In this document: positions 1 through 46,219 of the stretch, piece after piece
Layout: each line of letters opens with the position of its first letter
Numbering within the stretch: position 1 is the stretch's first letter
Assembly (NCBI GenBank): GCA_000002435.2
Contig: CM018793.1
Origin: Giardia intestinalis
Taxonomy: Eukaryota
Reading direction: 5' to 3' (one strand)
DNA length: 64,000 bases
Made by a program: the position numbers and the translations under genes
The notes under the pieces: model-generated
The model's database searches: none
What the model saw: the letters and a program-made list of their open reading frames with translations, nothing else
What the model was told of the DNA's origin: nothing

Positions 1-3000
1 GTGGGTGGTGAGCCTAGAGCAGTCGCCGAATCGATGGTTTCGGGACAGCTTCTGTCATGAAGGATAATAGAACAGTGCAGCGAAGAACAGGTAACCCAAG
101 TATCAAGAGATACACCTATAATGGCAACCAAGAGAAGTGCTATACATAGTTAGTGACCAATTCCCTTAGACAGGAAGCGGCAGATTATATGGCAGAAGAG
201 AAGTGTTGTTACTGTCGGCCGATCAAGCATTCTAAGACATCGAAGCTGTGACGATGCATCTACCAGTGAGCTCCATCGTGCATTCTGAATGGCACGTTGC
301 CCAACTAAGCTAGGGAAGTTCAGGAGATGACTACGCCCTTCTGTCATCGTATGTGCCCTTTGTGAACACATGTTTGACCCAGCATCCTCTGGCACTCAGA
401 GTAAACCCAAGTGCAAGCAGGGTCAGGCTCATTGAGGCACACCTGCTACGAGTAGCCCCTAGTGTTGGCCAGTCACACCTGAGAGCGTATCTGTCTAGGA
501 GAGCTCTATGTAGGGCGAGGAAGACCATCCTTCGCTGGTTGGCCGTGACTTGGAGCTCAGAACAGACAGGAAACTGAAGTGGTGGCTGGGCTATTGCTCC
601 GCATCGTCTGTGCAGCCATGGCCAGGTCAGCCAGAAGGATGCCTCGATGTGCACATGATTGGCTTGTGTCTGAATACTAAAAAAACTTGAGGCAGCCACC
701 GCGCCCGCCACCCCCAGGACAGAGCTTCTGCACGTATGGCTAGCTCCCCTTGTCAGTTCAGTCTATTGGTCCAATAGTCTGGGAACCCTCTGCCCCGCTC
801 TCTGGCGTACGATGTATCGCAACTGCTCATAGGGGTAAGCAGCATGAAAGAGGAATTGCATGTGTAGACAGCGTGTTATGCCCGTCTCAGAGGACCGAGG
901 TGTCTAACTACAGAGCGCTGCACCGAGCCATGCGCCCCACTGCCTTGCACTGGGGGCTGCCTCCACCACTGCACTTGCTACAACGGAGCTGTGTTGGCCC
1001 AGCAGATTAAGTAGATACTGCATCGACCCTATTTGACGATGTGTACACATCGCGTGATGTCCAATGGTGGAGCGGACACCGTGTGCCAAGGTGTCTGCTA
1101 TTAACGAAAAACAGCACTTGGTTGCACCAGAGATGCTTCTGTGTAAGCATGGGGTCTTCACACCTGTCCCCTATCAGCTATAGTGCCAGCTGTATATCCA
1201 GAAAGGTCCTGCAGAGCACTCCACCGTCTTTCAAGGTGAGACATGGGCTCCACACCTATAGCTAGAAACAGAACTCTGTACACCAACTGTTGTGACCCTC
1301 GTGTGGTAACTGGCCTGTATCATAATCAACTTACTAAACATCTATACACTTGTCTGGATGCCCGTTGCTGGTTTTAGACGGACCTGCGAAAAGGTTTGCC
1401 TTTGTCCGCATGACCTAGTGGTATCTAGTCTTGGTGACAGGCTTCAAGGAAGGAGGATGTTATTTGGGTACACAGAAGGCTACTCGTGTACAAAGATTCT
1501 CGGGAAGCAAATTTAGACAAAGAAGATGGAGAAAGCCAGGGAGCCCACTCTGTAATAGGATGACTAGGTATAGACCCATTTACAATAGGGAAGCACGTGA
1601 GTCATTCTGGCTTCTAAACATGGAAAGATCGTGGAGTCTGCGGACGACTTGGAGGCTGATTTGATTTTGTGCATTTGTAGCGAGGCAGAGGCTTTTGAAG
1701 ACCCACCTGTTCCGAAGTCGAGGGAGCTCGTTTCCTCTCCGTACGTGGCGCAAGACCCTATTGTAGAGGTATACGGTGCACACCAATATCAGTCAGCGTG
1801 TTTGCTACTCAGCAGTTCCTCAGTTGCGTCTTTTCGCAGTAGACGAGCCACCGGATGAGGCTCCCACAATCCACACGATTAGCTTTATAGTGCTCTGTAG
1901 ATGGCCATCCACCCTCACCAGGGGATGACTACATGCATTACGCAGTTTGAGGTACTTGGCAACCAAGGTGGCATAGTTAGCTCTTGCCCACTCAAGCTAG
2001 ACCTCAACCACCTTGCCAACCACATTCCAAGTCACGGTGTTTGTAGATGTCCACCTCAAGTCTACAAGGTGCATCCCACGACTGCACAGCGCGGATAGAA
2101 CCCTTTACCTGCTATAAGAGGCGCCAACCAGTTTGCTGCATCTGGATATCCCTTGTGCGCCCAACGGAGACTTAATGGATCACATTGCTGTGCACACCAG
2201 CCTCTCTGCTCGCGAGCTGCTTTAAGGCTCTCTCATTGTCTCGCCTCCACATGGTTGTCAGACTACCAAGCACTTTGTAACGTCAGCTGATCACCCGAGA
2301 TATCAAGCTTTCGTACAGCGGGTTGCTCAATGTGACACGAAATCTAGAGGGCACTGACTTTCTTAGCTTGCTGTCCATATAGCACTATCATCAATCTTCA
2401 GTCCAGTTGACCAGCACACAGTCCGTTCTCTGGCCAGCCAACCGGGCCTAGTCTTGCTGGTAGACTTTCGAGCATAAGAGTATCCCCTGACAGCGGTGGC
2501 CACGCTGTGTACATTGCCCGGATGATCACTCTTGGCAATGGCTCCAGGACCTGGGCACCCCAGACCAGAGGGACGACAACGGCCCAGTTCGTCTACGGCT
2601 CCACTATCCCTTAGTTAGCATGGAGTGTGGCAGCCCAGATAGCGCTGGCCGTCCGGTATCACCTTTTCTCCGGTGCGCGGGGGTAGCCCTCGTGTGAGAG
2701 GCGCTGTGATATGTTGGCTGGAGCCGGTCAGGCGAGCGGGACCACCGCTCTAGAAGTGCTGGCACATCATTGCGTGTCCGAAGGCATGCCCACCTCAGTG
2801 GGACCATCCCAGATGAGGACGGACGGGCACCGGTTCCTAGATGGGCCTGCGACCGGCGAGGGACAGTCTTTAAAGACGATCGGCCGGCAGAACCTGCTTC
2901 AGTGGCATAGGAGTCGACAGGGGGCAGGCTTATCGACGGTCTGCGGTGCAACCAGGTTAAGTCGTATGACAGACGGACATCCATCCGTTCGCGGTGGGCA

Positions 3001-3537
3001 TGTTGCGTGTCCCTAAGCAGAGGGGGCAGTCGTAGTGAGTCGCGATAGAACACGCAGCCATCCTCCACGGGGCATCGCTCCTGCCGGGCCTCAATGTAGG
3101 ACCTCGACAAGCAGTGTCTGAGGCATCTGCTTGTGATGACCCGTGGCTCGGGCTGCTGGGGATCGCACGGCCGGCTCCATCGGGTCGCTGGTCAGACATC
3201 CAGGAGAGCCTAGGAGTCCCTTGGCAGACCTTGTGACTGGCACAGCAGGAGAACTGGTCGCCAGGAGACCCTCACATCACAGCGAAGAGCGAGGCAGACC
3301 ACTGTCTAGCAGTTACCATGCGATGCGCCTTGCAACACAGAGGAGGGGCCTGCACTGATCGATCCATCTCACAGCCAGCCAGTCACATGAAAGTCGAATC
3401 AGCACGACCCCACCTCTCAGTGCAGACCATGTAGAGACCCTCCCTGCCAGCGCGTCATGCAGCACAGGCAGATGCCACGAAGGGGCGGACTAGTGAACAG
3501 AGCTGTCATGGCCTGTGTGACAGAGCGCCGGGCCATA

Positions 3538-5313
3538 ATGTTCTACGCAGTTTTACTGATCGGCCTTGCGCTTCAGCTGGCGACAGAGGAGTGCACACCT
3601 GTTTCTTCCGGTGGCCCCAACACTTGCAAGGCCTGTGACGCTGTCATCAACGGCAAGAAGTACTGCTCGCAGTGCAATGATACTGGGAATTCTGATTCCA
3701 GTGGCGCCCCGACAGACGGAGTGTGCTCAGCAGACAATAACGAGTGCAGCCAAAAACAAGATGGGAAGTGTACACAGTGCGCTAATAAATCCTTCATGTA
3801 CAAGGGCGGATGCTACAAGGATAGCCAGGCACCTGGCAACACGATGTGTGAAACAGCAACTGATGGAGTGTGCACGCAGGCTAAGGCTGGGTACTTCCTA
3901 CCACCCGATGCTGATAGAGATAATGCACACCAATCGGTCATACCATGTGGAGATGACACAGTAGTAACGCTTGGAAATAGCAAACAGTACAAGGGCGTAC
4001 CGCACTGCACTCAGTGTGAGAAGCCCACAGAGGCAAGTGATACTACTACTGCCAAGGCTGCGACGTGCACGGCTTGTGAGGACGGGTTCTTTGGGGCTAC
4101 TTGTGAAGCATGCCAAGACGAGAATTGCGCTACGTGTGCCATGACAGGCAATAACAAGTGCAGTAAGTGTAAAGGAACTGGTACTAAGACATATCTGAAA
4201 GTGGACGGTGGCAGCACAGGCACGTGCGTCGAAGCATCTGGATGTACAGCTGCTACGTTTCCAAAGGTCGATGAACAACAGGGAAACAAGTGCGCTGCAT
4301 GTAATAGTGTGCCAGATGGTGGAATCGCTAATTGTGCGACGTGCAGTCTGCTCACTCAAGGATCTAGAGCCGCCCCTTTGGTCACATGCTTGACGTGTGA
4401 ACAAAATAAGTATCTCACTCCAGAAAAGAATGCGTGCTTAGATACCTGCCCTGCTGGAATGTATGCCGTTAGTGGCGATAGCGGCAATGTTTGTACCCCC
4501 TGCCACGAGTCGTGCGCAAGCTGTAGCAATGACGCAGCAACGTCGTGCACGGCCTGCTATCCGGGGCATGTGCTGAGTCGGTCGTCTGGTGACGCAGGAA
4601 CGTGCATAAAAGAGTGCACGGGAGACTTTATGGCCCACTGCAAGGCCGACGGCTGCTCACTGAACGTCGGAGGCTCGAAGTACTGCGATCAGTGCGAGGA
4701 GGGGTACGCCCCAGTCGACGGCGTCTGCACATCCATACCTGCAACAGCGAGAGATGCCTCCGGATGTAAGGCAAGTGGCGGGAAATGCACTGAGTGTGGG
4801 GCAAACTACGCTCTGTTATCGGGCGGATGCTACAACACACAGAAGCTTCCTGGTAGCTCTGTGTGTACGGCTGCACAGAATAAGGGACAATGCCAAACGT
4901 GTGCCAATGGACAAAGCCCAGCTGGAGGAAAATGTCCGGCGTGTACTGAAGGATGTGTGAAGTGTGCGGGTAGTAAGGAAACCTGCACAGATTGCTTAGC
5001 AGGGTATTACAAAGGTGCCGGTGATAAATGCTTCAAATGCACGGATAGTGATAAGGCTAGCTCTAATGCAATAACTGGTGTAGAAAACTGCATAAGCTGT
5101 GCCCCGCCAGCTGGTGGCAATGGCCCTGTCACCTGTTACGTAACGCAACAAAAGGCTGACGATGGCACCGGCGGAGATACTGGAGGAGACAGCACGAACA
5201 AGAGCGGCCTCTCCACGGGCGCCATCGCGGGGATCTCCGTCGCTGTGGTCGCTGTCGTGGGGGGCCTCGTGGGCTTCCTCTGCTGGTGGTTCCTCTGCCG
5301 GGGGAAGGCGTGA
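3538..5313 (+). CDS. Variant-specific surface protein (VSP). It is Cys-rich with many CXXC motifs, an N-terminal signal peptide, a C-terminal TM helix and the invariant CRGKA tail.
   Basis: The ORF 3457..5313 ends ...[26 protein letters not shown]. The likely true start is the ATG at 3538 ([15 protein letters not shown] signal peptide) in a TAATGTT context shared with the other VSP starts. About 12% of residues are Cys and CXXC motifs recur throughout. Confidence 0.85.
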
Positions 5314-5327
5314 CTTAGGTAGTGAAT
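5313..5327 (+). terminator. Conserved VSP-type extended polyadenylation / 3' motif, ACTTAGGTAGTGAAT.
   Basis: The 15-mer overlaps the TGA stop. The same motif recurs after every VSP or VSP-fragment stop in the window (5589..5603, 8296..8310 reverse complement, 10941..10955). Confidence 0.7.
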
Positions 5328-5334
5328 GCTGTAC

Positions 5335-5584
5335 AGTGATAGTGATAGTGCTATGTGGTGTGACATGCTCTGTGGGTGACTGCAAGAGCTGTGTGATGGA
5401 TGATGTGTGTGGGGAGTGCAGCGATGGGTTCAGCATAGAGGGTGGCAGGTGTGTGTCTTCTGGCACCAACAGGAGCGGGCTCAGCGCGGATGCCATCGCG
5501 GGGATCTCTGTGGCTGTCGTCGTCGTCGTCGGAGGGCTTGTCGGCTTCCTCTGCTGGTGGTTCGTGTGCAGAGGAAAAGCGTAG
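5335..5584 (+). pseudogene. VSP C-terminal fragment with a Cys-rich stub, TM helix and CRGKA. It is a tandem partial duplication of a VSP 3' end and has no ATG of its own.
   Basis: In frame it reads ...[72 protein letters not shown]. It is followed at 5589..5603 by ACTTAGGTAGTAAAT. The only in-frame Met lies upstream at 5162, in a frame overlapping the complete VSP. Confidence 0.6.
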
Positions 5585-5589
5585 ATGTA

Positions 5590-6140
5590 CTTAGGTAGTA
5601 AATACGTCACTGTATAAGCCTATCACTCCTGTTTCCAGGGCCTCGCCTGTAGGTGCATTCAAGGATCTCACGGGCAATTCTTATTCAATTTCTGGCCGTC
5701 CGGAGATGAGGGTTGGTTTTGGATAACATAACGAGAGAGTCCTCTCCAGTGATATATCCAGAGCCTAGCGCCTTCCCCGGTCGCTCCGCAGGGGTGTGCT
5801 CAGACCGAATGCGTACTTCGGTCCTTTCGGGGTTCAGGCCTTCTTACGGACTCTCTGGTCCACCAATGGCGCCTCTTCTTGGTCTTCCTTCGTGGCGGGT
5901 GAAGCTCCGGTCGCTGTCTTTTTTAGATGCCCCGTCTGTCGGGGGCTGCCATCGGGCTCTCCGCTGGCTGGGCCCCTCGGTGTCCGTCCGGCTGTGGTTC
6001 TGGGCAGTGGTCCCACAGTCGCGGTCACGTAGGTCCCAGTGGGCCGGCTGGTGGGTGGGGCGGGGGTATGGGGCGGTGAGGCTGGAGGGGCTCTGGTGGG
6101 ACCAGGTGGTGGGTGTTCGTATGTGCCCCTGAGCTCCTGA
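5590..6140. repeat. Inverted-repeat arm A. It is the 3' flank shared by the convergent VSP pair and pairs with 7640..8310.
   Basis: ORF translations on opposite strands are near-identical. Examples are 5713..6132(+) versus 7626..8090(-), and 5796..6032(+) versus 7855..8274(-). Nucleotide comparison of the two VSP downstream flanks shows roughly 85% identity as an imperfect palindrome. Confidence 0.75.
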
Positions 6141-7639
6141 TGAGTGGGGTGATCGCAGCTGTGGTGACTGGGGGCTGTCCATCTGTGACTCACCCCTCTG
6201 TGTGCTCGTGGTCTGTGAGTGCCTCCACCCAGACAACGCCTCAGGAGCCGTGCACACCGGGACAGAGAGGATGACCAAGGGGGTCAAGCAGCCCCGCTAC
6301 GAGAGATGAGAGTGCACAGCAACCAGCCTGATCTGCAGGGCTGCTCGAGCGATGTAGTGGTAGACGGCTCCCTCTGACAGCGACCCTGGTGACTGCACTG
6401 GCCTGCTCTCGAGGCTGAGTGACAGTGTGCACAGATGGACCTGAGTGCAGGAGGACCATCCACACACGAACAGACTGTGTAGACCCAGAGAGGACTGGAG
6501 TCTGCTCGGGACACGCTGACTGTGCCCCCATACGAGAGCACCAGGCAACCACCCGAGCACCCGAGAGGCAACAACAGACACGGGCACCAGAGATCCCCAA
6601 CCAGATACATTGCTACGCTCATCCACAGGGGCATCAGAGGACCAGGTGGGGTCACCCTCACAGTCAGGGCCTGATAGGAAGCCAGAGGACTCACGCAGCA
6701 CAGTAGGTCCAAGGGAGGCACACTCCAGGCAGGTGAGCAGTGGCAGAGCCCTGACAGCTGCCAGCCCCCATGACACCCAGGCAGGCACCAGACTCACCGA
6801 AGACTCCGCTGGCCTCGACTGTCTTCATTGATGACCCGAGGGGGCAGCAGCCAGAGGAGTGAGGAGGCCTTCGGACGCCACAAGAGGCCCGGCTGTCCAG
6901 CAGGCTACGAGGCAGACAGGTGACCTCTGAGCACCACCCAGGCACAGAGCCGACCATCAGAGTGATGCCCGATCACAGAGATGATCACGAGCACCCTCCA
7001 CTGCACTCTGAGGGGCTGTCAATCATCCCAGCTGCCTCTCATAGCAGACCTCCTTGGGGGCAGTGCAGTGGGTCCCAGCTCATGCAGGAGGGTGCACGCC
7101 CCTCGGCATAGGATGCCCCGGCTCTCCCCGAGGGGTCATCAGAGCCACGAGAGGTGTTAAGGTTAGTAGACCACACCGGGAACTCCCGAGGGCACAGCAG
7201 GTGATGTTGGGTGATCCTCAGCGTGCTCCTCTCTGATGGTAGAGCATCCTGAGACCAAGGAGGCTCACCTCTGCCTACGGACGACACACAGCGCTCCACA
7301 ACGAGGACCCACCAGGAGCAGCACAGCTGGTCACGGGGATAGTGCAGCCACCCGGTGCCCCACCGTGTTAGTCTTTTGAGTCATCACACTAGAGGCATGA
7401 GAGAACCCCATCCCATCCACAGGCTCATCCACACCCCTGCTGGCCCGAGGTGAACTACCGTCGAGGCACTGGACAGGGCATGCCAGGGGCTCAGCAGATC
7501 CACACAGAGCATCAGCACAGAGCATCAGCGAGTAGCAGGAGAGGCTGCGATGGCCTGCCTCAACCCTCACGCACCAGCCAGACAGAGAGGCAGTACTGCC
7601 CGAGACAAGGGGCCAAGGGAGGCGCTCAGTCAGGGGGAC

Positions 7640-8310
7640 ACGACACGATCGTCGGTGCCTGTGTCTTGGAGTGCAACGAAGGCTGGGGATCAGACACAAC
7701 CACCTTAGCAAACAGAGCGGGGATCACCCACCACCCCACTGGCCCACTAGACCCAGGGACACATACAAGCACCCCCCACCTCAGCCCCCACCAGGAGCCT
7801 ACCAGCCTCACCGCCCCATACCCCCGCCCCACCCACCAGCCGGCCCACTGGGACCTACGTGACCGCGACTGTGGGACCACTGCCCAGAACCACAGCCGGA
7901 CGGACACCGAGGGGCCCAGCCAGCGGAGAGCCCGATGGCAGCCCCCGACAGACGGGGCATCTAAAAAAGACAGCGACCAGAGCTTCACCCACCACGAAGG
8001 AAGACCAAGGAGAGGCGCCACTGGTGGACGATGTACATGGTGAGTAAGCGGAATCCCAGGCCGACTGAGCAAGCATTCCCGGGTGTGCACACTCAGCTGA
8101 GCACACCCCTGCGGAGCGACCAGGGAAGGTGCCAGGTTTTAGATATACTAAAAGAGAGGAGCTCCTCGTTATATCATCCACAACCAACCTTTGTCTCCGG
8201 ACACGGCCAAAGGAGCGAGAATTTATTCGTGAGATTTCTGGATCGTACCTACAAGCACCCGGTAGCACATCCATATAAGCTACATAAAGTAACGCGTTTA
8301 CTACCTAAGT
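7640..8310. repeat. Inverted-repeat arm B. It is the reverse complement of arm A and carries about 100 bp of extra sequence.
   Basis: Same evidence as arm A. It also includes the reverse-complement polyA motif at 8296..8310. Confidence 0.75.
8296..8310 (-). terminator. VSP-type polyA / 3' motif (reverse complement ACTTAGGTAGTAAAC).
   Basis: The plus strand reads gtttactacctaagt directly abutting the minus-strand stop codon at 8311..8313. Confidence 0.7.
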
Positions 8311-10638
8311 CTACGCCTTCCCCCTGCAGAGGAACCACCAGCAGAGGAAGCCCACGAGACCCCCCACAACGACGATGACTGCGACGGAGATCCCCGCGAT
8401 GGCGCCAGTGGAGAGCCCGCTCTTGTTCGTGCTACCACCGGCACTGTCACCGTTCATGAGGTAGCAGAGAACGGAGCCAGTACTAGACGATGGAGGAGCG
8501 CAGCTCATGCAGCCAGCAACTCCCTTGACACTTCCACTGTTGCTGTCACACGAAGTGCATGGTCCAGCTGCTGATCCGACCATATAGTACCCAGCTGCGC
8601 ATGACGTACACTGGTCAGAGCTATCTGCAGCTGAACATGTATTACAGGTTGAATGACACGAGGGGCATGCTCCATCATTGGGCCGAAGACTATTAGCACA
8701 TGTTTCGCACTTACCCCTGCTATCAGCTAATGTGCATATCTGTTTGCCTGGCTGCTTGGTAGTTTCATAGCAGCCGCCTTCCTTGAGGAAGTAGTTAGCG
8801 GCGCATTTGATACATGCTCCATTATTCATTTCAGTACAGAAAGCTACTCGTGCGTTACTTGTTGTACAGACCCCGTTCAGAGGAGCCTGATTATCCACTG
8901 AGCACTGGGAGCAGTAGTCTGTCCCGCCGATCCTTGCCCCACAGACCTTACATCCGTTCTTGTCCGCCGTACACGCATCCCCGCAGGTGCCCCCTTGCAC
9001 AGGATCACTACTTTTGTATATTAATGCCTTGCCAGCAGGACAAGCACTACACTGATTGTTGGCTGGCCCAACGCACTCAGCGCACTCAGGGCTGCATGCC
9101 TTACACTTCCTGTCAGTATCTCCATAGTATCCGCTGATGGTCGTGCAGTCAGGTATGCACTGGTTTGTTGGAGTGAGATAATTGTTGTCATTACATTCAG
9201 TGCAGACCTCTCTGTCAGTCTTCGGGTTATCACAGGCCTTGCAGTTGGGAGTATTGCAGGCCCCTGCCTTCGGAACACACGTGAGCCCGTCCTCTGACGG
9301 CTGGTACGTCTCCGTGCACGTGCAGATTCCTCCTGCCTCGTTTGCGTTATCGGGGCACTTCGCTATGCAGCCCTTTCCGTTCGGCTGGACCTTCTGTCCG
9401 ACCGTCGCACAGCCCGTGCATGTCTGCTCGCCCCCAGGAGGCGTTGCGCACGTGCTACAGCCGGGTATCGGTGGGTCACAGGCCGTTTTCAGGACACACG
9501 TGAGCCCGTCCTCTGACGGCTGGTACGTCTCCGTGCACGTGCAGATTCCTCCTGCCTCGTTTGCGTTATCGGGGCACTTCGCTATGCAGCCCTTTCCGTT
9601 CGGCTGGACCTTCTGTCCGACCGTCGCACAGCCCGTGCATGTCTGCTCGCCCCCAGGAGGCGTTGCGCACGTGCTACAGCCGGGTATCGGTGGGTCACAG
9701 GCCGTTTTCAGGACACACGTGAGCCCGTCCTCTGACGGCTGGTACGTCTCCGTGCACGTGCAGATTCCTCCTGCCTCGTTTGCGTTATCGGGGCACTTCG
9801 CTATGCAGCCCTTTCCGTTCGGCTGGACCTTCTGTCCGACCGTCGCACAGCCCGTGCATGTCTGCTCGCCCCCAGGAGGCGTTGCGCACGTGCTACAGCC
9901 GGGTATCGGTGGGTCACAGGCCGTTTTCAGGACACACGTGAGCCCGTCCTCTGACGGCTGGTACGTCTCCGTGCACGTGCAGATTCCTCCTGCCTCGTTT
10001 GCGTTATCGGGGCACTTCGCTATGCAGCCCTTTCCGTTCGGCTGGACCTTCTGTCCGACCGTCGCACAGCCCGTGCATGTCTGCTCGCCCCCAGGAGGCG
10101 TTGCGCACGTGCTACAGCCGGGTATCGGTGGGTCACAGGCCGTTTTCAGGACACACGTGAGCCCGTCCTCTGACGGCTGGTACGTCTCCGTGCACGTGCA
10201 GATTCCTCCTGCCTCGTTTGCGTTATCGGGGCACTTCGCTATGCAGCCCTTTCCGTTCGGCTGGACCTTCTGTCCGACCGTCGCACAGCCCGTGCATGTC
10301 TGCTCGCCCCCAGGAGGCGTTGCGCACGTGCTACAGCCGGGTATCGGTGGGTCACAGGCCGTTTTCAGGACACACGTGAGCCCGTCCTCTGACGGCTGGT
10401 ACGTCTCCGTGCACGTGCAGATTCCTCCTGCCTCGTTTGCGTTATCGGGGCACTTCGCTATGCAGCCCTTTCCGTTCGGCTGGACCTTCTGTCCGACCGT
10501 CGCACAGCCCGTGCATGTCTGCTCGCCCCCAGGAGGCGTTGCGCACGTGCTACAGCCGGGTATCGGTGGGTCACAGGCCGTTTTCGGGCCGATTCCTGCT
10601 AGAACCGTTGTGCACACTAAAAGAATTACTGCCAACAT
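8311..10638 (-). CDS. Variant-specific surface protein (VSP) carrying six tandem 73-aa Cys-rich repeats. It is convergent with the VSP at 3538..5313.
   Basis: It is a 775-aa ORF with a signal peptide (MLAVILLVCTTVLAG). The unit KTACDPPIPGCSTCATPPGGEQTCTGCATVGQKVQPNGKGCIAKCPDNANEAGGICTCTETYQPSEDGLTCVL occurs six times. The protein then continues as a non-repeated Cys-rich body ending in the [17 protein letters not shown] tail. The start ATG sits in TTAATGTTGG. Confidence 0.85.
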   Translation of the reverse strand: MLAVILLVCTTVLAGIGPKTACDPPIPGCSTCATPPGGEQTCTGCATVGQKVQPNGKGCIAKCPDNANEAGGICTCTETYQPSEDGLTCVLKTACDPPIPGCSTCATPPGGEQTCTGCATVGQKVQPNGKGCIAKCPDNANEAGGICTCTETYQPSEDGLTCVLKTACDPPIPGCSTCATPPGGEQTCTGCATVGQKVQPNGKGCIAKCPDNANEAGGICTCTETYQPSEDGLTCVLKTACDPPIPGCSTCATPPGGEQTCTGCATVGQKVQPNGKGCIAKCPDNANEAGGICTCTETYQPSEDGLTCVLKTACDPPIPGCSTCATPPGGEQTCTGCATVGQKVQPNGKGCIAKCPDNANEAGGICTCTETYQPSEDGLTCVLKTACDPPIPGCSTCATPPGGEQTCTGCATVGQKVQPNGKGCIAKCPDNANEAGGICTCTETYQPSEDGLTCVPKAGACNTPNCKACDNPKTDREVCTECNDNNYLTPTNQCIPDCTTISGYYGDTDRKCKACSPECAECVGPANNQCSACPAGKALIYKSSDPVQGGTCGDACTADKNGCKVCGARIGGTDYCSQCSVDNQAPLNGVCTTSNARVAFCTEMNNGACIKCAANYFLKEGGCYETTKQPGKQICTLADSRGKCETCANSLRPNDGACPSCHSTCNTCSAADSSDQCTSCAAGYYMVGSAAGPCTSCDSNSGSVKGVAGCMSCAPPSSSTGSVLCYLMNGDSAGGSTNKSGLSTGAIAGISVAVIVVVGGLVGFLCWWFLCRGKA
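9271..10584. repeat. Coding tandem repeat array of 6 x 219 bp inside the VSP gene.
   Basis: A periodicity of exactly 219 nt is seen directly. For example, cacgtgagcccg occurs at 9278 and again at 9497, and then repeats a further four times. Copy 2 of the duplication has a single unit. Confidence 0.9.
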
Positions 10639-10760
10639 TAAGTTTAAGCTTACGCTCGATTATTATTCTCTTCAATTAAGCTTATAATTAATCCATAAGT
10701 TATAGACAAACCACTGTTACCTTTTGATAAATCAATTAGAATGGAAAAGAATAAAATCAA
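10639..10760 (-). promoter_or_regulatory. AT-rich 5' flank and putative promoter of the minus-strand VSP.
   Basis: About 75% AT lies immediately upstream of the ATG (ATTAATTATAAGCTTAATTGAAGAGAATAATAATCGAGCG...). Giardia promoters are short AT-rich elements near the start codon. This is an inference only. Confidence 0.3.
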
Positions 10761-10889
10761 GAGCACACCTACCAGAGGCCGGCTGATAGTGCGGTTCTCC
10801 CTGGCTTCAATAGAAACAGGATGAGTGAGGGCTAGACTCAGATCGTGCGTCCCTTGCGGAAACTAATAATTGTTCAGAGATGCATTCCT

Positions 10890-10955
10890 ATACATTGCTG
10901 TCAGTATGTTTGTCGACTTTTTTGCAGAGGCAAGGTGTAGATTTAGGTAGTAAAT
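10890..10955 (+). pseudogene. Degenerate VSP 3'-end relic reading ...CRLFCRGKV* followed by ATTTAGGTAGTAAAT.
   Basis: The reading frame ending at TAG 10938..10940 gives HCCQYVCRLFCRGKV*. The 15-mer 10941..10955 matches the VSP 3' motif with one mismatch. There is no TM region or VSP body upstream. It lies in the 5' flank of the minus-strand VSP. Confidence 0.4.
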
Positions 10956-12101
10956 GCGTTAACTGATATGTGCAGATCCCTCTGTGCCCAGCTCGGGCTC
11001 CTCAGTAGCATACCTGGATCTGATGGATAGAGAAGCACACCTACTATAAGCATCTCTTGCTGATGGCCTGTAACCACCTTTTACAGTCCAGTGTGCATCC
11101 TCTAGTGCTCCACTTCCCCCTGTGGCCAGTGTATCTCTAGGGCGAAGCAGACTCTTTTGAAAAGGTATTGACCTAGCACCATGAAGGAGCGCGGGGCACT
11201 GCACTGGGCCCGTACACAGGTCAGAGGCCCGTAGTTGTAGGTCAGCAAGATCCCGGTGCGACGGTCGGGTGCTCGTCCATCAGAGCTCTCAGGATGGTGG
11301 CCAGGGGGCAGGAGCGACGCCTTTCTTGTCGGTCGCGACGCTGGTCAGTTGTCGATGCAAAATGTGCAAGGCCCCACAGGCGAGGAGCACAGAAGGGCAC
11401 AGGGAGCGTAAGGCCACCAGCAACTCGTAACTTTTTATATCTTGGTGGCCGGTCTCAGCACTTCGTAGGTGCAGATATGAGAAGCTGGGCCGAGTGATCT
11501 GCTGGTGGAGGGGCCGACACACACTTCTCTAAGGGTTCTGCCATGGGTGACGACGATGGTAGGCCGCACCACTGCAGGACCGACGCACGCCAGAAATAGA
11601 TGAAAGGCTCGCAAGCAGGTGCAGACTGGAGCGCCAGCCGCTGGCCGGATCACCCGCACAGGCACGCTCTGGTTACTTCAATAGATGGTTCAGTGGCACC
11701 TTAACGGAAAACACTGCTGCGCTCCACTTGCTGGCCATTTGAGGCACGCAGGTTCGATTGGTCCCAGGGCCACCGCTAAGCGTGGCATGACAGGCTATCT
11801 CCCAACATCGGGCGACGGTAAGACTCACGCCTACTTTTAGCCAACTGAGCTCGAAGCAATCCATGCCCTTGCGGGTCCATACTGGCGTGGTCTGTACAGC
11901 TATGCGCAGTGATGCATAACAGACCTCGGAACCGTAGACACCCTGGGCGCGCCCCTTGCTGCGCAGGGCCAGGGACGCCGGGAGGGCTCGGGCCGCCAAA
12001 TGCCTTGGTTCGCAGTCTTTCGCAGGAAAACCAGCTAGGAAGCGTAACCGCACGCCTCTTCGAGGTGAACGGGAATGGCGCAGCACTGTTCAGATTATAA
12101 C

Positions 12102-39019: not shown

Positions 39020-42000
39020 GCACAGGCAAAAGGTTCTTTGTTGTGCAATACCTGTTTGTATTCAAAGGGATGTAAAGGCTTGAAGAGCTGCATAGTACAC
39101 AGGTCGGCCTCAGTGGCGTCCGGAATAATCCCCTTCAATTAGATACCCCTACCTACCTCGTCCAATGTGTCTTTCAATGCATAAACAGTTCTATACAATC
39201 CTTTGCCAATCACTATAGCCAGCTTAATCATCGGATCATCACTCGTTTCAGTTTTCTCAGACATTTTTAGTTGATACTCGATGAGCTGACCTAATTGGTA
39301 GTGCCAAAGGTAGCATGAAGTTTGTCTGCTTTGCATATGGAAGGATCTGTTATATCCTTACAGAATTTGGCAGTGCAATGTATAATTACCAACAAGGATC
39401 TGTAAAGCAAATAGTCACAAGTTTTGAAGGATTTAGCAAGACTAAAAGTCACTCTCAGACCTCAACTTGAGTATAAGTGATGATCCTATCGAGAACTAAA
39501 GGTCCATAAACGTAACGGAACAGGCGAATAGTCCGATAATTATTTCTTCTTGAAACGACAGATTTTTTCATGCTTCTAAGTGATTAAACTAAAGACAAAT
39601 TCTAGGCTAAATAAGAGCCCCGGAATCCCTTGAAGCATAAGCTATCCTATTACTGGGTTATTATAGAATCTAACTAACTCTAGTACTGTGGAATGGCAAC
39701 CAGGTTTAAAGTAAGGGAAGATCTATGTGCTTACAGACTTTAGGCCCACGGGATAGGGGTAGCAAATCATATATTTGAAGCTAATTGTTTGCCATCTTAT
39801 CTTCTAGCTGATTCACAGTAATGTGTATCCTTCGCACCGCAAATGGTTTCTAGTATCAAGAAAATGCATAGCAACTCTACCGGGCTACAGCTAAAATAAA
39901 GCAAGAAGCAAAGTCCACGGATATATGCCCAACTATACATAGTTATCATAATTGGCTAGGGCCTCGCGGATTACACAGTGCCTTTGCGATGTGCAAGATA
40001 ACATCGTATAGTAATGTGCACTCATCCATAAAGTAGCACGCATTATTTGTACATATTGATGTAGCAGGGCCTGGTATCTCCAATTATCCGGATAGCTTTC
40101 TAACTCGACTAGTAATAAGTTGCAATATCTTTATTCTTCGCCAAATGGCCAGCATTTTCTGAGGGTCTAGACCAGGAATAGTGAAGTCAGCATTCAATTG
40201 AGTACTTGTACACTGCACATAGGGTGGGTTGGTCTCTACGCATCCAAAGTTTGTAGCGGAAACTCATTGCGTAACTATCTAAGAATCCTATGCAAAATCG
40301 ATAGCTCTTAACGCAGATAGGCTATCTTTTCAAATCTACAAATCGCTAAGATCCCCTTTCTAAAATCTTCGACATCACAGACCCCATGCCAGGCAGCAAA
40401 CCTTGTGCTACATAATATGAGAGCCTCTAGGATGTGTAAACACCTGTGCGGCTACAGCGACGTATCTCCATTCACAGGTGCCAGTAGAACCGATGGACAC
40501 TGGTGAAGCATATCGGTGGGTGGAAGATGTAGTGAGTCAGGCATTCTGTATACTGTCATTCACCACAGCTCCCGTAGTGAGCCATGGGGAGCCTGAAGAC
40601 TGGTGCTCTATGGCGGCGTGAGTGTGGGTGGTGAGCCTAGAGCAGTCGCCGAATCGATGGTTTCGGGACAGCTTCTGTCATGAAGGATAATAGAACAGTG
40701 CAGCGAAGAACAGGTAACCCAAGTATCAAGAGATACACCTATAATGGCAACCAAGAGAAGTGCTATACATAGTTAGTGACCAATTCCCTTAGACAGGAAG
40801 CGGCAGATTATATGGCAGAAGAGAAGTGTTGTTACTGTCGGCCGATCAAGCATTCTAAGACATCGAAGCTGTGACGATGCATCTACCAGTGAGCTCCATC
40901 GTGCATTCTGAATGGCACGTTGCCCAACTAAGCTAGGGAAGTTCAGGAGATGACTACGCCCTTCTGTCATCGTATGTGCCCTTTGTGAACACATGTTTGA
41001 CCCAGCATCCTCTGGCACTCAGAGTAAACCCAAGTGCAAGCAGGGTCAGGCTCATTGAGGCACACCTGCTACGAGTAGCCCCTAGTGTTGGCCAGTCACA
41101 CCTGAGAGCGTATCTGTCTAGGAGAGCTCTATGTAGGGCGAGGAAGACCATCCTTCGCTGGTTGGCCGTGACTTGGAGCTCAGAACAGACAGGAAACTGA
41201 AGTGGTGGCTGGGCTATTGCTCCGCATCGTCTGTGCAGCCATGGCCAGGTCAGCCAGAAGGATGCCTCGATGTGCACATGATTGGCTTGTGTCTGAATAC
41301 TAAAAAAACTTGAGGCAGCCACCGCGCCCGCCACCCCCAGGACAGAGCTTCTGCACGTATGGCTAGCTCCCCTTGTCAGTTCAGTCTATTGGTCCAATAG
41401 TCTGGGAACCCTCTGCCCCGCTCTCTGGCGTACGATGTATCGCAACTGCTCATAGGGGTAAGCAGCATGAAAGAGGAATTGCATGTGTAGACAGCGTGTT
41501 ATGCCCGTCTCAGAGGACCGAGGTGTCTAACTACAGAGCGCTGCACCGAGCCATGCGCCCCACTGCCTTGCACTGGGGGCTGCCTCCACCACTGCACTTG
41601 CTACAACGGAGCTGTGTTGGCCCAGCAGATTAAGTAGATACTGCATCGACCCTATTTGACGATGTGTACACATCGCGTGATGTCCAATGGTGGAGCGGAC
41701 ACCGTGTGCCAAGGTGTCTGCTATTAACGAAAAACAGCACTTGGTTGCACCAGAGATGCTTCTGTGTAAGCATGGGGTCTTCACACCTGTCCCCTATCAG
41801 CTATAGTGCCAGCTGTATATCCAGAAAGGTCCTGCAGAGCACTCCACCGTCTTTCAAGGTGAGACATGGGCTCCACACCTATAGCTAGAAACAGAACTCT
41901 GTACACCAACTGTTGTGACCCTCGTGTGGTAACTGGCCTGTATCATAATCAACTTACTAAACATCTATACACTTGTCTGGATGCCCGTTGCTGGTTTTAG

Positions 42001-44161
42001 ACGGACCTGCGAAAAGGTTTGCCTTTGTCCGCATGACCTAGTGGTATCTAGTCTTGGTGACAGGCTTCAAGGAAGGAGGATGTTATTTGGGTACACAGAA
42101 GGCTACTCGTGTACAAAGATTCTCGGGAAGCAAATTTAGACAAAGAAGATGGAGAAAGCCAGGGAGCCCACTCTGTAATAGGATGACTAGGTATAGACCC
42201 ATTTACAATAGGGAAGCACGTGAGTCATTCTGGCTTCTAAACATGGAAAGATCGTGGAGTCTGCGGACGACTTGGAGGCTGATTTGATTTTGTGCATTTG
42301 TAGCGAGGCAGAGGCTTTTGAAGACCCACCTGTTCCGAAGTCGAGGGAGCTCGTTTCCTCTCCGTACGTGGCGCAAGACCCTATTGTAGAGGTATACGGT
42401 GCACACCAATATCAGTCAGCGTGTTTGCTACTCAGCAGTTCCTCAGTTGCGTCTTTCCGCAGTAGACGAGCCACCGGATGAGGCTCCCACAATCCACACG
42501 ATTAGCTTTATAGTGCTCTGTAGATGGCCATCCACCCTCACCAGGGGATGACTACATGCATTACGCAGTTTGAGGTACTTGGCAACCAAGGTGGCATAGT
42601 TAGCTCTTGCCCACTCAAGCTAGACCTCAACCACCTTGCCAACTACATTCCAAGTCACGGTGTTTATAGATGTCCACCTCAAGTCTGCAAGGTGCATCCC
42701 ACGACTGCACAGCGCGGATAGAACCCTTTACCTGCTATAAGAGGCGCCAACCAGTTTGCTGCATCTGGATATCCCTTGTGCGCCCAACGGAGACTTAATG
42801 GATCACATTGCTGTGCACACCAGCCTCTCTGCTCGCGAGCTGCTTTAAGGCTCTCTCATTGTCTCGCCTCCACATGGTTGTCAGACTACCAAGCACTTTG
42901 TAACGTCAGCTGATCACCCGAGATATCAAGCTTTCGTACAGCGGGTTGCTCAATGTGACACGAAATCTAGAGGGCACTGACTTTCTTAGCTTGCTGTCCA
43001 TATAGCACTATCATCAATCTTCAGTCCAGTTGACCAGCACACAGTCCGTTCTCTGGCCAGCCAACCGGGCCTAGTCTTGCTGGTAGACTTTCGAGCATAA
43101 GAGTATCCCCTGACAGCGGTGGCCACGCTGTGTGCCTTGCCCAAATGATCACTCTCGGCAATGGCTCCAGGACCTGGGCACCCCAGACCAGAGGGACGAC
43201 AACGGCCCAGTTCGTCTACGGCTCCACTATCCCTTAGTTAGCATGGAGTGTGGCAGCCCAGATAGCGCTGGCCGTCCGGTATCACCTTTTCTCCGGTGCG
43301 CGGGGGTAGCCCTCGTGTGAGAGGCGCTGTGATATGTTGGCTGGAGCCGGTCAGGCGAGCGGGACCACCGCTCTAGAAGTGCTGGCACATCATTGCGTGT
43401 CCGAAGGCGTGCCCACCTCAGTGGGACCATCCCAGATGAGGACGAACGGGTACCGGTTCCTTCAGAGGGGCCTGCGACCAGCGAGGGACAGTCTTTAAAG
43501 ACGATCGGCCGGCAGAACCTGCTTCAGTGGCATAGGAGTCGACAGGGGGCAGGCTTATCGACGGTCTGCGGTGCAACCAGGTTAAGTCGTATGACAGACG
43601 GACATCCATCCGTTCGCGGTGGGCATGTTGCGTGTCCCTAAGCAGAGGGGGCAGTCGTAGTGAGTCGCGATAGAACACGCAGCCATCCTCCACGGGGCAT
43701 CGCTCCTGCCGGGCCTCAATGTAGGACCTCGACAAGCAGTGTCTGAGGCATCTGCTTGTGATGACCCGTGGCTCGGGCTGCTGGGGATCGCACGGCCGGC
43801 TCCATCGGGTCGCTGGTCAGACATCCAGGAGAGCCTAGGAGTCCCTTGGCAGACCTTGTGACTGGCACAGCAGGAGAACTGGTCGCCAGGAGACCCTCAC
43901 ATCACAGCGAAGAGCGAGGCAGACCACTGTCTAGCAGTTACCATGCGATGCGCCTTGCAACACAGAGGAGGGGCCTGCACTGATCGATCCATCTCACAGC
44001 CAGCCAGTCACATGAAAGTCGAATCAGCACGACCCCACCTCTCAGTGCAGACCCATGCGGAGGGCCTTCCTTGCCAGTGCGTCATGTAGCACAGACAGAT
44101 GCCACGAAGGGGCGGACTAGTGAACAGAGCTGTCATGGCCTGTGTGACAGACGCTGGCACA

Positions 44162-45943
44162 ATGTTCTACGCAGTTTTGCTGATCGGCCTCATGCTCGAG
44201 ATGGCACGGGCAGCGCAAGCCGGAGACGAATGCGAAGAGGTAACTGGCAGCGAACCCAACACTTGCAAGGCCTGTAGCGCCGTCATCAACGGCAAGAAGT
44301 ACTGCTCGCAGTGCAACAGCGGTGGGTCTCAATCTGCCCCGACGGACGGCAAGTGCACAACAGACAACAACGAATGTAGCCAAAAACAAGATGGGAAGTG
44401 TACACAGTGCGCTAATAAATCCTTCATGTACAAGGGCGGATGCTACAAGGATAGCCAGGCACCTGGCAACACGATGTGTGAAACAGCAACTGATGGAGTG
44501 TGCACGCAGGCTAAGGCTGGGTACTTCCTACCACCCGATGCTGATAGAGATAATGCACACCAATCGGTCATACCATGTGGAGATGACACAGTAGTAACGC
44601 TTGGAAATAGCAAACAGTACAAGGGCGTACCGCACTGCACTCAGTGTGAGAAGCCCACAGAGGCAAGTGATACTACTACTGCCAAGGCTGCGACGTGCAC
44701 GGCTTGTGAGGACGGGTTCTTTGGGGCTACTTGTGAAGCATGCCAAGACGAGAATTGCGCTACGTGTGCCATGACAGGCAATAACAAGTGCAGTAAGTGT
44801 AAAGGAACTGGTACTAAGACATATCTGAAAGTGGACAGTGGCAGCACAGGCACGTGCGTCGAAGCATCTGGATGTACAGCGGCTACGTTTCCAAAGGTCG
44901 ATGAACAACAGGGAAACAAGTGCGCTGCATGTAATAGTGTGCCAGATGGTGGAATCGCTAATTGTGCGACGTGCAGTCTGCTCACTCAAGGATCTAGAGC
45001 CGCCCCTTTGGTCACATGCTTGACGTGTGAACAAAATAAGTATCTCACTCCAGAAAAGAATGCGTGCTTAGATACCTGCCCTGCTGGAATGTATGCCGTT
45101 AGTGGCGATAGCGGCAATGTTTGTACCCCCTGCCACGAGTCGTGCGCAAGCTGTAGCAATGACGCAGCAACGTCGTGCACGGCCTGCTATCCGGGGCATG
45201 TGCTGAGTCGGTCGTCTGGTGACGCAGGAACGTGCATAAAAGAGTGCACGGGAGACTTTATGGCCCACTGCAAGGCCGACGGCTGCTCACTGAACGTCGG
45301 AGGCTCGAAGTACTGCGATCAGTGCGAGGAGGGGTACGCCCCAGTCGACGGCGTCTGCACATCCATACCTGCAACAGCGAGAGATGCCTCCGGATGTAAG
45401 GCAAGTGGCGGGAAATGCACTGAGTGTGGGGCAAACTACGCTCTGTTATCGGGCGGATGCTACAACACACAGAAGCTTCCTGGTAGCTCTGTGTGTACGG
45501 CTGCACAGAATAAGGGACAATGCCAAACGTGTGCCAATGGACAAAGCCCAGCTGGAGGAAAATGTCCGGCGTGTACTGAAGGATGTGTGAAGTGTGCGGG
45601 TAGTAAGGAAACCTGCACAGATTGCTTAGCAGGGTATTACAAAGGTGCCGGTGATAAATGCTTCAAATGCACGGATAGTGATAAGGCTAGCTCTAATGCA
45701 ATAACTGGTGTAGAAAACTGCATAAGCTGTGCCCCGCCAGCTGGTGGCAATGGCCCTGTCACCTGTTACGTAACGCAACAAAAGGCTGACGATGGCACCG
45801 GCGGAGATACTGGAGGAGACAGCACGAACAAGAGCGGCCTCTCCACGGGCGCCATCGCGGGGATCTCCGTCGCTGTGGTCGCTGTCGTGGGGGGCCTCGT
45901 GGGCTTCCTCTGCTGGTGGTTCCTCTGCCGGGGGAAGGCGTGA
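44162..45943 (+). CDS. VSP, the paralog of 3538..5313. Its N-terminal ~90 aa differ and the rest is near-identical.
   Basis: It begins [41 protein letters not shown]..., whereas copy 1 begins [36 protein letters not shown].... From ...[15 protein letters not shown] onwards the sequence is identical except for about one substitution (KVDGGS versus KVDSGS). It ends CRGKA*. Confidence 0.85.
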
Positions 45944-45964
45944 CTTAGGTAGTGAATGCTGTAC

Positions 45965-46214
45965 AGTGATAGTGATAGTGCTATGTGGTGTGACATGCTC
46001 TGTGGGTGACTGCAAGAGCTGTGTGATGGATGATGTGTGTGGGGAGTGCAGCGATGGGTTCAGCATAGAGGGTGGCAGGTGTGTGTCTTCTGGCACCAAC
46101 AGGAGCGGGCTCAGCGCGGATGCCATCGCGGGGATCTCTGTGGCTGTCGTCGTCGTCGTCGGAGGGCTTGTCGGCTTCCTCTGCTGGTGGTTCGTGTGCA
46201 GAGGAAAAGCGTAG
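45965..46214 (+). pseudogene. VSP C-terminal fragment, the copy-2 equivalent of 5335..5584.
   Basis: The translation is identical (...[17 protein letters not shown]), followed by ACTTAGGTAGTAAAT. Confidence 0.6.
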
Positions 46215-46219
46215 ATGTA

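What the first reader, a model, noticed from the sequence alone, without database searches (positions are those of the whole stretch)
9271..10584. VSP paralogs differ by a 6-to-1 change in 219-bp coding tandem repeats
The minus-strand VSP in copy 1 has six perfect or near-perfect 73-aa units (about 10 Cys each, with CSTC and CTGC CXXC motifs). Its paralog at 48936..50168 has exactly one. The flanks and the whole remaining gene are near-identical, so the difference is a clean expansion or contraction by replication slippage or unequal crossover. This changes the size and epitope valency of the ectodomain, from 775 to 410 aa, without touching the anchor.
Basis: seen in the sequence. Interest (0 to 1): 0.7.

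Follow-up and report, generated by a model that had tools for sequence, protein, structure and literature searches.

The report
Giardia surface-protein twins, six versus one repeat
Two nearly identical surface-antigen (VSP) genes in the Giardia WB reference genome differ only by five extra copies of a 73-amino-acid module. The difference is real, but both the genes and this kind of repeat-number variation have been known in Giardia since the 1990s.

Summary
The minus-strand gene at 8311..10638 (775 aa) carries six in-frame 219-bp units. Its paralog at 48936..50168 (410 aa) carries one. After removing five units (1095 bp), the genes differ at a single nucleotide (I245T).

The window is chromosome 5 of the Giardia intestinalis WB-C6 PacBio reference. 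Both genes are already annotated there as VSPs (KAE8305455.1 and KAE8305473.1). They lie in a direct segmental duplication of at least 10.9 kb, with the two copies 40.6 kb apart. Dozens of independent short-read assemblies confirm its right-hand boundary.

The 2010 catalogue of WB vsp genes, built on the 2007 Sanger assembly, already lists a 410-aa single-unit gene on chromosome 5 (vsp161) and two "TR219" genes (vsp236 and vsp275, about three units, probably collapsed). One-versus-many is therefore independently supported. The exact count of six rests on the PacBio assembly.

The junction sequences favour contraction of an older array over expansion. The mechanism is in-register unequal recombination or slippage. 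The near-exact precedent is vspA6 (about 23 units of 195 bp) versus vspA6-S1 (about one unit).

Verdict: real, ordinary and already known in kind. Interest is low.

The parts
8311..10638 (-). VSP gene, 775 aa, six-unit form (KAE8305455.1 / XP_001703852.2)
   Evidence: ORF. Pfam PF03302 E = 1.9e-88. Exact sequence is in the WB-C6 reference on the 4,018,654-bp contig.
9271..10584 (-). Six in-frame 219-bp (73-aa) tandem units. Units 1-5 are identical; unit 6 differs at 2 nt at its 3' end.
   Evidence: TRF 9275..10585, period 219, 6.0 copies, 100%. Unit-by-unit comparison and coordinates.
48936..50168 (-). Paralogous VSP gene, 410 aa, one-unit form (KAE8305473.1 / XP_001703891.2; vsp161 of Adam 2010)
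   Evidence: ORF. Pfam E = 1.1e-91. Cluster look-up. The 410 aa, 41.4 kDa, 51 Cys and 16 CXXC match the vsp161 row.
49896..50114 (-). The single 219-bp unit of copy 2, identical to unit 6 of copy 1
1..11982 (.). Copy 1 of the direct segmental duplication. It runs off the left edge of the window and includes the 1095 extra bases.
   Evidence: Self-BLAST. Independent short-read contigs end at 11953 (7), 11949 (1) or 11888 (4).
40624..51511 (.). Copy 2 of the segmental duplication
   Evidence: Self-BLAST. 13 independent short-read contigs start exactly at 51482.
10634..10640 (-). TAATGTT initiator element spanning the ATG. The same element lies at 50164..50170 in copy 2.
   Evidence: The motif is defined in PMC2996952.
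8297..8302 (-). AGTAAA polyadenylation-type signal, starting 9 nt after the stop codon. The same signal lies at 48922..48927 in copy 2.
3538..5313 (+). Neighbouring convergent (tail-to-tail) VSP of copy 1, 591 aa from the annotated start (KAE8305454.1). Its copy-2 counterpart is 44162..45943, 593 aa (KAE8305472.1).

Best explanation
[quoted passage not shown] Each sits, tail-to-tail with a second VSP, in one copy of a direct segmental duplication of at least 10.9 kb. Both genes have the same initiator, signal peptide, 319-aa non-repeat ectodomain, transmembrane helix, CRGKA tail and 3' signal. They differ only in the number of a 219-bp in-frame module placed 54 nt after the ATG: six copies versus one. 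The difference arose by in-register homologous misalignment within the array. That could be unequal sister-chromatid or inter-copy exchange, single-strand annealing after a break, or replication slippage. Any such event adds or removes whole 73-aa, 10-Cys modules. The most likely direction is contraction. An array was already present when the segment duplicated, and copy 2 lost all but one unit in a single deletion between the first and last units. The protein-level consequence is inferred, not shown: a shorter or longer disulfide-bonded rod that carries one or six copies of the same epitope-bearing module on an unchanged anchor.
For: Shown:
- Six perfect units versus one, differing by exactly 5 x 219 nt plus one SNP.
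- VSP identity.
- The segmental duplication is real. Self-BLAST finds it, and the fetched short-read contigs, 100% identical to the window apart from two samples at 99.85-99.97%, mostly stop 29 nt inside the shared sequence at both right-hand boundaries: 7 at 11953 and 13 at 51482. None continues to the array.
- The independent Sanger-era catalogue lists a 410-aa, 41.4-kDa, 51-Cys, 16-CXXC gene on chromosome 5 (vsp161). It also lists TR219 genes of 555 and 549 aa with 71 Cys, close to the 3-unit model of 556 aa, 55.9 kDa, 71 Cys and 20 CXXC.

For the direction:
- The internal junction GTCCTG|AAAACG cannot be made by joining the single-copy gene's own ends (GTTCCG|AAGGCA at the 3' end, GGCCCG|AAAACG at the 5' end). 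Expansion from the present one-unit gene would need a duplication, then two substitutions within 3 nt, then a five-fold spread. Meanwhile only 3 differences accumulated across about 2.9 kb of collapsed sequence. A single unit-1/unit-6 deletion gives copy 2 exactly.
- WB paralogs P0001 (10 x 75 aa, non-repeat region 93% identical) and P0002 (11 x 75 aa) carry homologous arrays at the same position that end at the same residue. The array is therefore older than this duplication.

For modularity:
- Each unit has an even number of Cys (10).
- In the AlphaFold model (mean pLDDT 81.9), residues 19-91 score about 78-93 and form beta-hairpins like the rest of the ectodomain.
- The fold has weak similarity to furin-like cysteine-rich repeat rods.

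Precedent: vspA6 versus vspA6-S1, and allelic repeat variation in vspA6 and vspC5 (PMC2996952).
Against: - No reads were available, so the count of six rests on one PacBio assembly.
- The 2007 assembly gave about 3 units, and its authors warn that repeat numbers may be condensed.
- Giardia is tetraploid, and alleles of repeat-bearing vsp genes are known to differ in copy number. Each locus may therefore be heterogeneous, with the assembly showing one allele.
- The direction is a parsimony argument. An error-prone founding duplication could have created the odd junction in one step.
- No expression, surface-display or antibody data exist here for either gene.
- The left end of the duplication lies outside the window.
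Confidence: 0.85

Rival explanations
1. Assembly artefact. The repeat was expanded in copy 1 or collapsed in copy 2, and both loci really have the same number of units.
For: The 2007 WB assembly produced two TR219 genes of about 3 units (555 and 549 aa) where the 2020 assembly has one of 6 units. Adam 2010 warns that repeat numbers may be condensed by assembly. Xu 2020 notes that duplications up to about 20 kb are near the limit their reads could resolve. The old RefSeq had three identical 90-aa C-terminal fragments where there are now two loci.
Against: A 410-aa one-unit gene on chromosome 5 was assembled independently from Sanger reads, which easily span 219 bp plus flanks (vsp161). Multi-unit versions also exist in that assembly. 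The array is only 1.3 kb and lies 1.4 kb from a unique flank, far below PacBio read lengths. The two copies are distinguishable by nearby variants. About 3 units (657 bp) is what a collapse limited by Sanger read length would give.
Confidence: 0.05
2. Expansion rather than contraction. The segment duplicated when the gene had one unit, and copy 1 then amplified the unit to six.
For: All units are 100% identical, as expected for very recent amplification. A short microhomology (CCGAA) is shared by the 5' flank/unit boundary and the unit/3' flank boundary, and could have seeded a first illegitimate duplication.
Against: The internal junction differs by 2 nt from what the one-unit gene could produce by simple duplication, and the same odd junction is present five times. 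Several steps would have to fit into the time in which only 3 differences arose across about 2.9 kb. Related WB VSPs already have 10-11-unit arrays at the homologous position.
Confidence: 0.25
3. The two forms are alleles or haplotypes of one locus that the assembler placed as two loci, not paralogs.
For: Giardia is tetraploid, and allelic repeat-number variation in vsp genes is documented. Regions around VSPs show more allelic variation in mapped reads.
Against: The shared sequence joins two different unique flanks, GL50803_0015013 on one side and GL50803_004263 on the other. Short-read graphs from many independent WB samples branch exactly there. 28.6 kb of unique genes separates the copies. 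WB allelic heterozygosity is about 0.01%, well below the 1.4% divergence of the left part.
Confidence: 0.03
4. The duplication is older than it looks. The VSP gene region is kept nearly identical by ongoing gene conversion between the copies, so the repeat-number difference is a snapshot of frequent back-and-forth change. This modifies the best explanation and does not exclude it.
For: Divergence along the duplicated segment is very patchy. There are 0-3 differences per 500 bp over most of it, but 75 differing columns in 3501-4000 and 28 in 7001-8000. One short-read contig (L009) joins copy 1's unique flank to a copy-2-type variant. Recombination among vsp genes has been reported.
Against: The patches could equally be imports from third VSP genes into one copy of a young duplication. 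No conversion tract boundaries were demonstrated. L009 could be a chimeric contig.
Confidence: 0.3

Closest known systems
vspA6 (CRP170, vsp67) versus vspA6-S1 (vspG3M, vsp175) of Giardia WB
   Same: [quoted passage not shown] They share the family, organism and architecture: leader, then repeats, then a non-repeat region, then the conserved 3' end (PMC2996952).
   Different: The unit here is 219 bp rather than 195 bp and is a different sequence. The counts are 6 versus 1 rather than about 23 versus 1. Here the two genes are shown to lie in a direct multi-gene segmental duplication of at least 10.9 kb on one chromosome. The repeat is known to be immunodominant for vspA6 and is untested here.
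TR219 genes vsp236 (GL50803_122564) and vsp275, and vsp161, in the 2010 WB vsp catalogue
   Same: These are almost certainly the same genes. vsp161 matches the 410-aa gene in every tabulated value. vsp236 matches a 3-unit version to within 1 aa and 0.1 kDa. All carry TAATGTT and belong to clade II.
   Different: The catalogue gives about 3 units and three entries, and vsp236 and vsp275 have no chromosome assignment. The 2020 assembly gives 6 units and two loci on chromosome 5. I found no text that explicitly pairs vsp161 with the TR219 genes.
WB paralogs P0001 (1099 aa, 10 x 75 aa) and P0002 (1229 aa, 11 x 75 aa)
   Same: They belong to the same VSP subfamily, with a homologous unit (63% and 42% identical). 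The array sits at the same place and ends at the same residue before the conserved ACNTPNCKACDNPKTD region. Units within each array are identical, which indicates concerted evolution.
   Different: The period is 75 aa rather than 73 aa. They lie elsewhere in the genome (a 1.54-Mb contig, and elsewhere on the 4.02-Mb contig). Their non-repeat regions are 93% and 69% identical, not 99.7%.
Intragenic tandem-repeat size variation in other microbial surface proteins, such as yeast FLO/ALS adhesins and the group B streptococcal alpha C protein (from my own knowledge, not tested here)
   Same: In-frame repeat gain or loss by recombination or slippage changes the length and antigenicity of a surface protein without touching its anchor.
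   Different: These are unrelated protein families. In Giardia the primary antigenic variation mechanism is epigenetic switching among about 130-300 vsp genes, and repeat-number change is a secondary source of diversity.

Membership tests
Giardia variant-specific surface protein (VSP, Pfam PF03302) | Match to the PF03302 profile above the gathering score | tested here: met
   297.4 and 308.2 bits against a cut-off of 31.4
Giardia variant-specific surface protein (VSP, Pfam PF03302) | C-terminal CRGKA pentapeptide preceded by a hydrophobic membrane-spanning segment | tested here: met
   Both proteins end in ...[17 protein letters not shown]. The model predicts a helix at 384-407.
Giardia variant-specific surface protein (VSP, Pfam PF03302) | About 11-13% cysteine, mostly in CXXC motifs, plus a GGCY motif | tested here: met
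   101 Cys in 775 aa (13.0%) with 26 CXXC, and 51 Cys in 410 aa (12.4%) with 16 CXXC. KEGGCYE is present.
Giardia variant-specific surface protein (VSP, Pfam PF03302) | N-terminal signal peptide | tested here: inconclusive
   The hydrophobic N-terminus MLAVILLVCTTVLAGIG is visible, but no signal-peptide predictor was available. Indirect support: the reference annotation names a gene 'VSP' only if SignalP-positive, and both genes are so named.
Giardia variant-specific surface protein (VSP, Pfam PF03302) | Initiator TAATGTT/CAATGTT at the ATG and an AGTRAA signal after the stop codon | tested here: met
   TAATGTT at 10634-10640 and 50164-50170. AGTAAA at 8297-8302 and 48922-48927.
Giardia variant-specific surface protein (VSP, Pfam PF03302) | [quoted passage not shown] | not testable with these tools
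   No expression data. The only finding is that vsp236 is listed among vsp genes with a conserved miR2 site in the 3' region.
Tandem-repeat-containing VSPs (vspA6 / vspC5 type; 30-36 genes in WB) | In-frame tandem units of 105-516 bp that begin 66-99 bp after the ATG, directly after the leader | tested here: met
   219-bp units begin 54 nt after the ATG, slightly earlier than the three published examples.
Tandem-repeat-containing VSPs (vspA6 / vspC5 type; 30-36 genes in WB) | Existence of a near-identical paralog with about one unit (the vspA6-S1 relationship) | tested here: met
   The collapsed genes differ at 1 of 1233 nt.
Tandem-repeat-containing VSPs (vspA6 / vspC5 type; 30-36 genes in WB) | Allelic or clonal variation in unit number, and immunodominance of the repeat | not testable with these tools
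   This needs reads, PCR or sera. The 3-unit versus 6-unit discrepancy between assemblies is compatible with it but equally with collapse.

The most novel reading that the evidence does not exclude
The roughly three-unit TR219 contigs of the 2007 assembly (vsp236, vsp275) could be real alleles or sub-clonal variants rather than collapsed assemblies. In that case the unit number at this locus would change on laboratory time-scales, within the tetraploid WB line and between its stocks. The 6-unit/1-unit pair would then be a natural, otherwise isogenic system (same promoter, anchor and 3' miRNA site) for measuring how repeat valency affects antibody recognition and VSP switching.
Probability: 0.12. 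Interest if true: 0.4.

Novelty: already known. Interest (0 to 1): 0.15.

Why it matters
It matters little beyond bookkeeping. It gives a clean, well-resolved example of how the VSP repertoire diversifies after segmental duplication: whole-module gain or loss on an otherwise identical gene. It also shows that 'duplicated' VSPs can carry repeats if near-identical pairs of different length are counted. A 2022 preprint that counted only identical pairs reported that none do. There are two practical consequences. Reads from the two genes cannot be told apart in RNA-seq or proteomics except at the unit-unit junction and the 8810 SNP. And repeat counts taken from the 2007 assembly (about 3) should not be trusted for this gene.

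Tried and rejected
1. Exact look-ups of the 775-aa, 410-aa and P0001 proteins in the contig index found nothing. The homolog search did not return the query's own entries, and its best hit was 69% identical. For a while this led me to conclude wrongly that the window was a non-WB (AII) isolate and that P0001 was the WB ortholog. The exact-sequence cluster look-up corrected this: the window is the WB-C6 reference, and P0001 and P0002 are paralogs.
2. I tried to fetch a chromosome-scale contig around flanking genes to compare other assemblies. Only short-read Logan contigs came back. None crosses into the VSP array, so they cannot count units. They did validate the duplication boundary.
3. P0057 (1149 aa) looked like a variant from another isolate. 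It is the same gene with a later start call.
4. The primary paper on VSP size heterogeneity by repeat number (PMC186261) is not held. I cite it only through Adam 2010.
5. A sequence search of the PDB found no solved relative. The fold search gave only weak furin-like-repeat matches, with none at E <= 0.001.
6. The WB versus Be-2 comparison paper says nothing about VSP repeat numbers.
7. I considered the 501-aa antisense ORF across the array (9182..10687, + strand) and rejected it as a by-product of a stop-free frame being repeated six times.
Full report

Yes. Tandem Repeats Finder reports a single strong array in the region, at 9275..10585, with period 219, 6.0 copies, 100% matches and score 2622. 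The minus-strand ORF 8311..10638 encodes 775 aa and the ORF 48936..50168 encodes 410 aa. Both end in CRGKA.

Units 1-5 are identical at every nucleotide. Unit 6 differs only at unit positions 215 and 217 (GTC CTG to GTT CCG, Leu to Pro). The single unit of the second gene (49896..50114) is identical to unit 6.

The two genes differ in length by 1095 nt, exactly 5 x 219. Once five units are removed they differ at one nucleotide, window 8810 A/G, which gives I245T. Each unit has 10 Cys and two CXXC motifs, CSTC and CTGC. The totals are 101 Cys and 26 CXXC against 51 Cys and 16 CXXC.

**2. What and where it is**

Both proteins match Pfam PF03302 (Giardia VSP) at E = 1.9e-88 and 1.1e-91. An exact-sequence look-up shows that the window is the Giardia intestinalis WB clone C6 reference, on the 4,018,654-bp contig. 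That contig is the largest in the 2020 PacBio assembly.
- The 775-aa protein is KAE8305455.1 / XP_001703852.2.
- The 410-aa protein is KAE8305473.1 / XP_001703891.2.
- Both are annotated 'VSP'.
- The flanking genes are GL50803_0015013, GL50803_0023630 and GL50803_004263.

Each gene has the TAATGTT initiator over its ATG. Each has an AGTAAA signal starting 9 nt after the stop codon.

**3. Context: a real segmental duplication**

Self-comparison shows that window 1..11982 matches 40624..51511 in direct orientation. Copy 1 runs off the left edge of the window, so the duplicated segment is at least 10.9 kb. Each copy holds two convergent VSP genes 3.0 kb apart: the repeat VSP and a 591/593-aa VSP.

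Divergence between the copies is patchy:
- 142 alignment columns differ in total.
- 75 of them lie in copy-1 coordinates 3501-4000, the N-terminus of the neighbouring VSP.
- 28 lie in 7001-8000.
- Only 3 lie across 8000..11982.

Short-read assemblies of many independent sequencing runs match the window. Nearly all are 100.000% identical over 5-15 kb; two samples (SRR21529620 and SRR13990249) are 99.85-99.97% identical. The fetched contigs that reach a boundary mostly stop just inside the shared sequence. Seven end at 11953 and thirteen start at 51482, each 29 nt inside a boundary. None continues to the array. This is the behaviour expected of a k-mer graph assembler at a true two-copy repeat joined to two different unique flanks. 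(The k of about 31 is my own knowledge of the Logan assemblies.) The right-hand boundary, and therefore paralogy rather than allelism, is independently supported in WB stocks from several laboratories.

**4. Could six-versus-one be an assembly artefact?**

I could not access reads, but a second, independent assembly speaks to it. The supplementary table of Adam et al. 2010 (PMC2996952), built on the 2007 Sanger assembly, lists three relevant genes:

| Entry | Notes | Size | Mass | Cys | CXXC |
|---|---|---|---|---|---|
| vsp161 | clade II, chromosome 5, complete, TAATGTT | 410 aa | 41.4 kDa | 51 | 16 |
| vsp236 (GL50803_122564) | 219-bp repeat | 555 aa | 55.8 kDa | 71 | 20 |
| vsp275 | 219-bp repeat | 549 aa | 55.2 kDa | 71 | 19 |

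Every vsp161 value equals what I compute for the 410-aa gene here. A three-unit version of the window gene would have 556 aa, 55.9 kDa, 71 Cys and 20 CXXC, very close to vsp236.

So a one-unit gene and multi-unit genes coexisted in an assembly made from different data. About three units (657 bp) is what a collapse limited by Sanger read length would give. The authors themselves warn that repeat numbers 'may have been artificially condensed'.

The old RefSeq annotation held three identical 90-aa C-terminal fragments (XP_001703835.1, XP_001703852.1 and XP_001703891.1) where the new one has two full genes. This suggests one redundant contig in 2007.

I conclude that one-versus-many is solid. The exact number six rests on the PacBio assembly, but it is credible because the array is only 1.3 kb long and lies 1.4 kb from unique sequence.

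**5. Mechanism and direction**

An exact multiple of the unit, in frame, with no other change, is the signature of in-register misalignment within the array. Candidates are unequal exchange, single-strand annealing and replication slippage.

The junctions help with direction:
- 5' flank to unit: ...GGCCCG|AAAACGGCC
- unit to unit, five times: ...TGTGTCCTG|AAAACGGCC
- last unit to 3' flank: ...TGTGTTCCG|AAGGCAGGG

The internal junction cannot be produced by joining the ends present in the one-unit gene. Expansion from the present single-unit state would need a founding duplication, then two substitutions within 3 nt, then a five-fold spread. All of this would have to happen while only three differences accumulated across about 2.9 kb of surrounding sequence. 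One deletion between unit 1 and unit 6 yields copy 2 exactly.

Other WB VSPs of the same subfamily carry arrays at the same position that end at the same residue. P0001 has 10 identical 75-aa units, and P0002 has 11. In P0001 the unit is 63% identical to this one, while the non-repeat region is 93% identical. That pattern indicates concerted evolution of an old array.

I therefore favour contraction in copy 2 at about 0.65, with expansion as the rival at about 0.25.

**6. Protein-level reading (inferred)**

A family-alignment AlphaFold model of the 410-aa protein is confident, with mean pLDDT 81.9.
- The unit (residues 19-91) scores about 78-93 and consists of beta-hairpins like the rest of the ectodomain.
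- The signal peptide and the stalk (residues 368-388) score low.
- Residues 384-407 form the membrane helix.

The fold search finds only weak resemblance to furin-like cysteine-rich repeat rods in ErbB receptors and R-spondins. The best E-value is 4e-3, and nothing reaches 1e-3. No relative by sequence has a solved structure.

With 10 Cys per unit, each unit can in principle satisfy its own disulfides. Adding or removing units should then lengthen or shorten the rod without disturbing the rest. Whether the unit is an epitope, and whether either gene is expressed, was not testable. The only related note in the literature is that vsp236 is listed among vsp genes with a conserved miR2 site in the 3' region.

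**7. Comparison with what is known**

Related published points:
- Adam 2010 counted 30 WB vsp genes with repeats of 105-516 bp. The paper reported allelic copy-number variation for vspA6 and vspC5. It also found that single repeat units of 9 of the 30 match 10 non-repeat vsp genes.
- A 2022 preprint on the new assembly counts 36 repeat-bearing VSPs. [quoted passage not shown] It also states that no duplicated VSPs have repeats, counting only identical pairs.
- Xu 2020 reports that 6.9% of the WB genome is duplicated, with multi-gene duplications of up to 20 kb that are often rich in gene families.
- Long-read work found structural variants enriched for VSPs.

The present pair is therefore a well-resolved instance of a known phenomenon in catalogued genes. 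I found no text that explicitly pairs vsp161 with the TR219 genes, but nothing about the pairing is unexpected.

**8. Verdict**

Assembly artefact and allelism are both unlikely. Novelty: already known. Interest: low (0.15).

The residual novel possibility is that the 3-unit contigs of 2007 reflect real instability of the array within the WB line. It would be cheap to test with existing long reads or a single PCR.

Noticed in passing
window 3501-4000 versus 44140-44640 (N-terminus of the neighbouring VSP pair 3538..5313 / 44162..45943): More than half of all differences between the two ~11-kb duplicates (75 of 142 alignment columns) fall in this 500-bp stretch. It encodes the end of the signal peptide and roughly the first 70 residues of the 591/593-aa VSPs. 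The rest of that gene is almost identical, with one amino-acid difference (D/S) seen downstream. This looks like a short gene-conversion patch from a third VSP, or localized diversification.
   Followed up: partly
window 5463-6131 versus 7754-8432 (and the same positions +40.6 kb in copy 2): A degenerate inverted repeat lies between the two convergent VSP genes. It is 80% identical overall, and the core 5858-6125 / 7762-8029 is 92% complementary. It includes a relic of a VSP 3' end at 5463-5603. It resembles a decayed 'tail-to-tail inverted pair' of the kind described for WB VSPs, in which one partner was replaced by a different VSP.
   Followed up: partly
window 9182-10687, + strand: A 501-aa antisense ORF spans the whole array. 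It is open only because one reverse frame of the 219-bp unit lacks a stop codon and is repeated six times. There is no evidence that it is a gene.
   Followed up: no
Adam 2010 table (vsp236, vsp275, vsp161) versus window 8311-10638 and 48936-50168: The 2007 assembly gave three entries for this gene type (two of about 3 units, one of 1 unit) and three identical 90-aa RefSeq fragments. The 2020 assembly has two loci (6 units and 1 unit). This is either collapse plus a redundant contig, or real allelic length variation.
   Followed up: partly
L009 (SRR10368409), locus 9245-9648; window 11579-11982 / 51108-51511: One short-read contig runs from copy 1's unique flank 404 nt into the shared segment. 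There it matches copy 2 perfectly and copy 1 with one mismatch. This is either a chimeric contig or a sign of exchange between the copies in that WB stock.
   Followed up: no
window 7503-7529 and 48130-48156: A small 13-bp x 2.1 tandem repeat (CACAGAGCATCAG) lies in the intergenic region downstream of the VSP and is present in both duplicates. It is probably of no consequence.
   Followed up: no
The word-indexed homolog search did not return the query's own database entries (P0082 and P0083, 100% identical) and topped out at 69% identity. This briefly led me to misidentify the isolate. It is a tool-behaviour caveat for highly repetitive, Cys-rich queries.
   Followed up: yes
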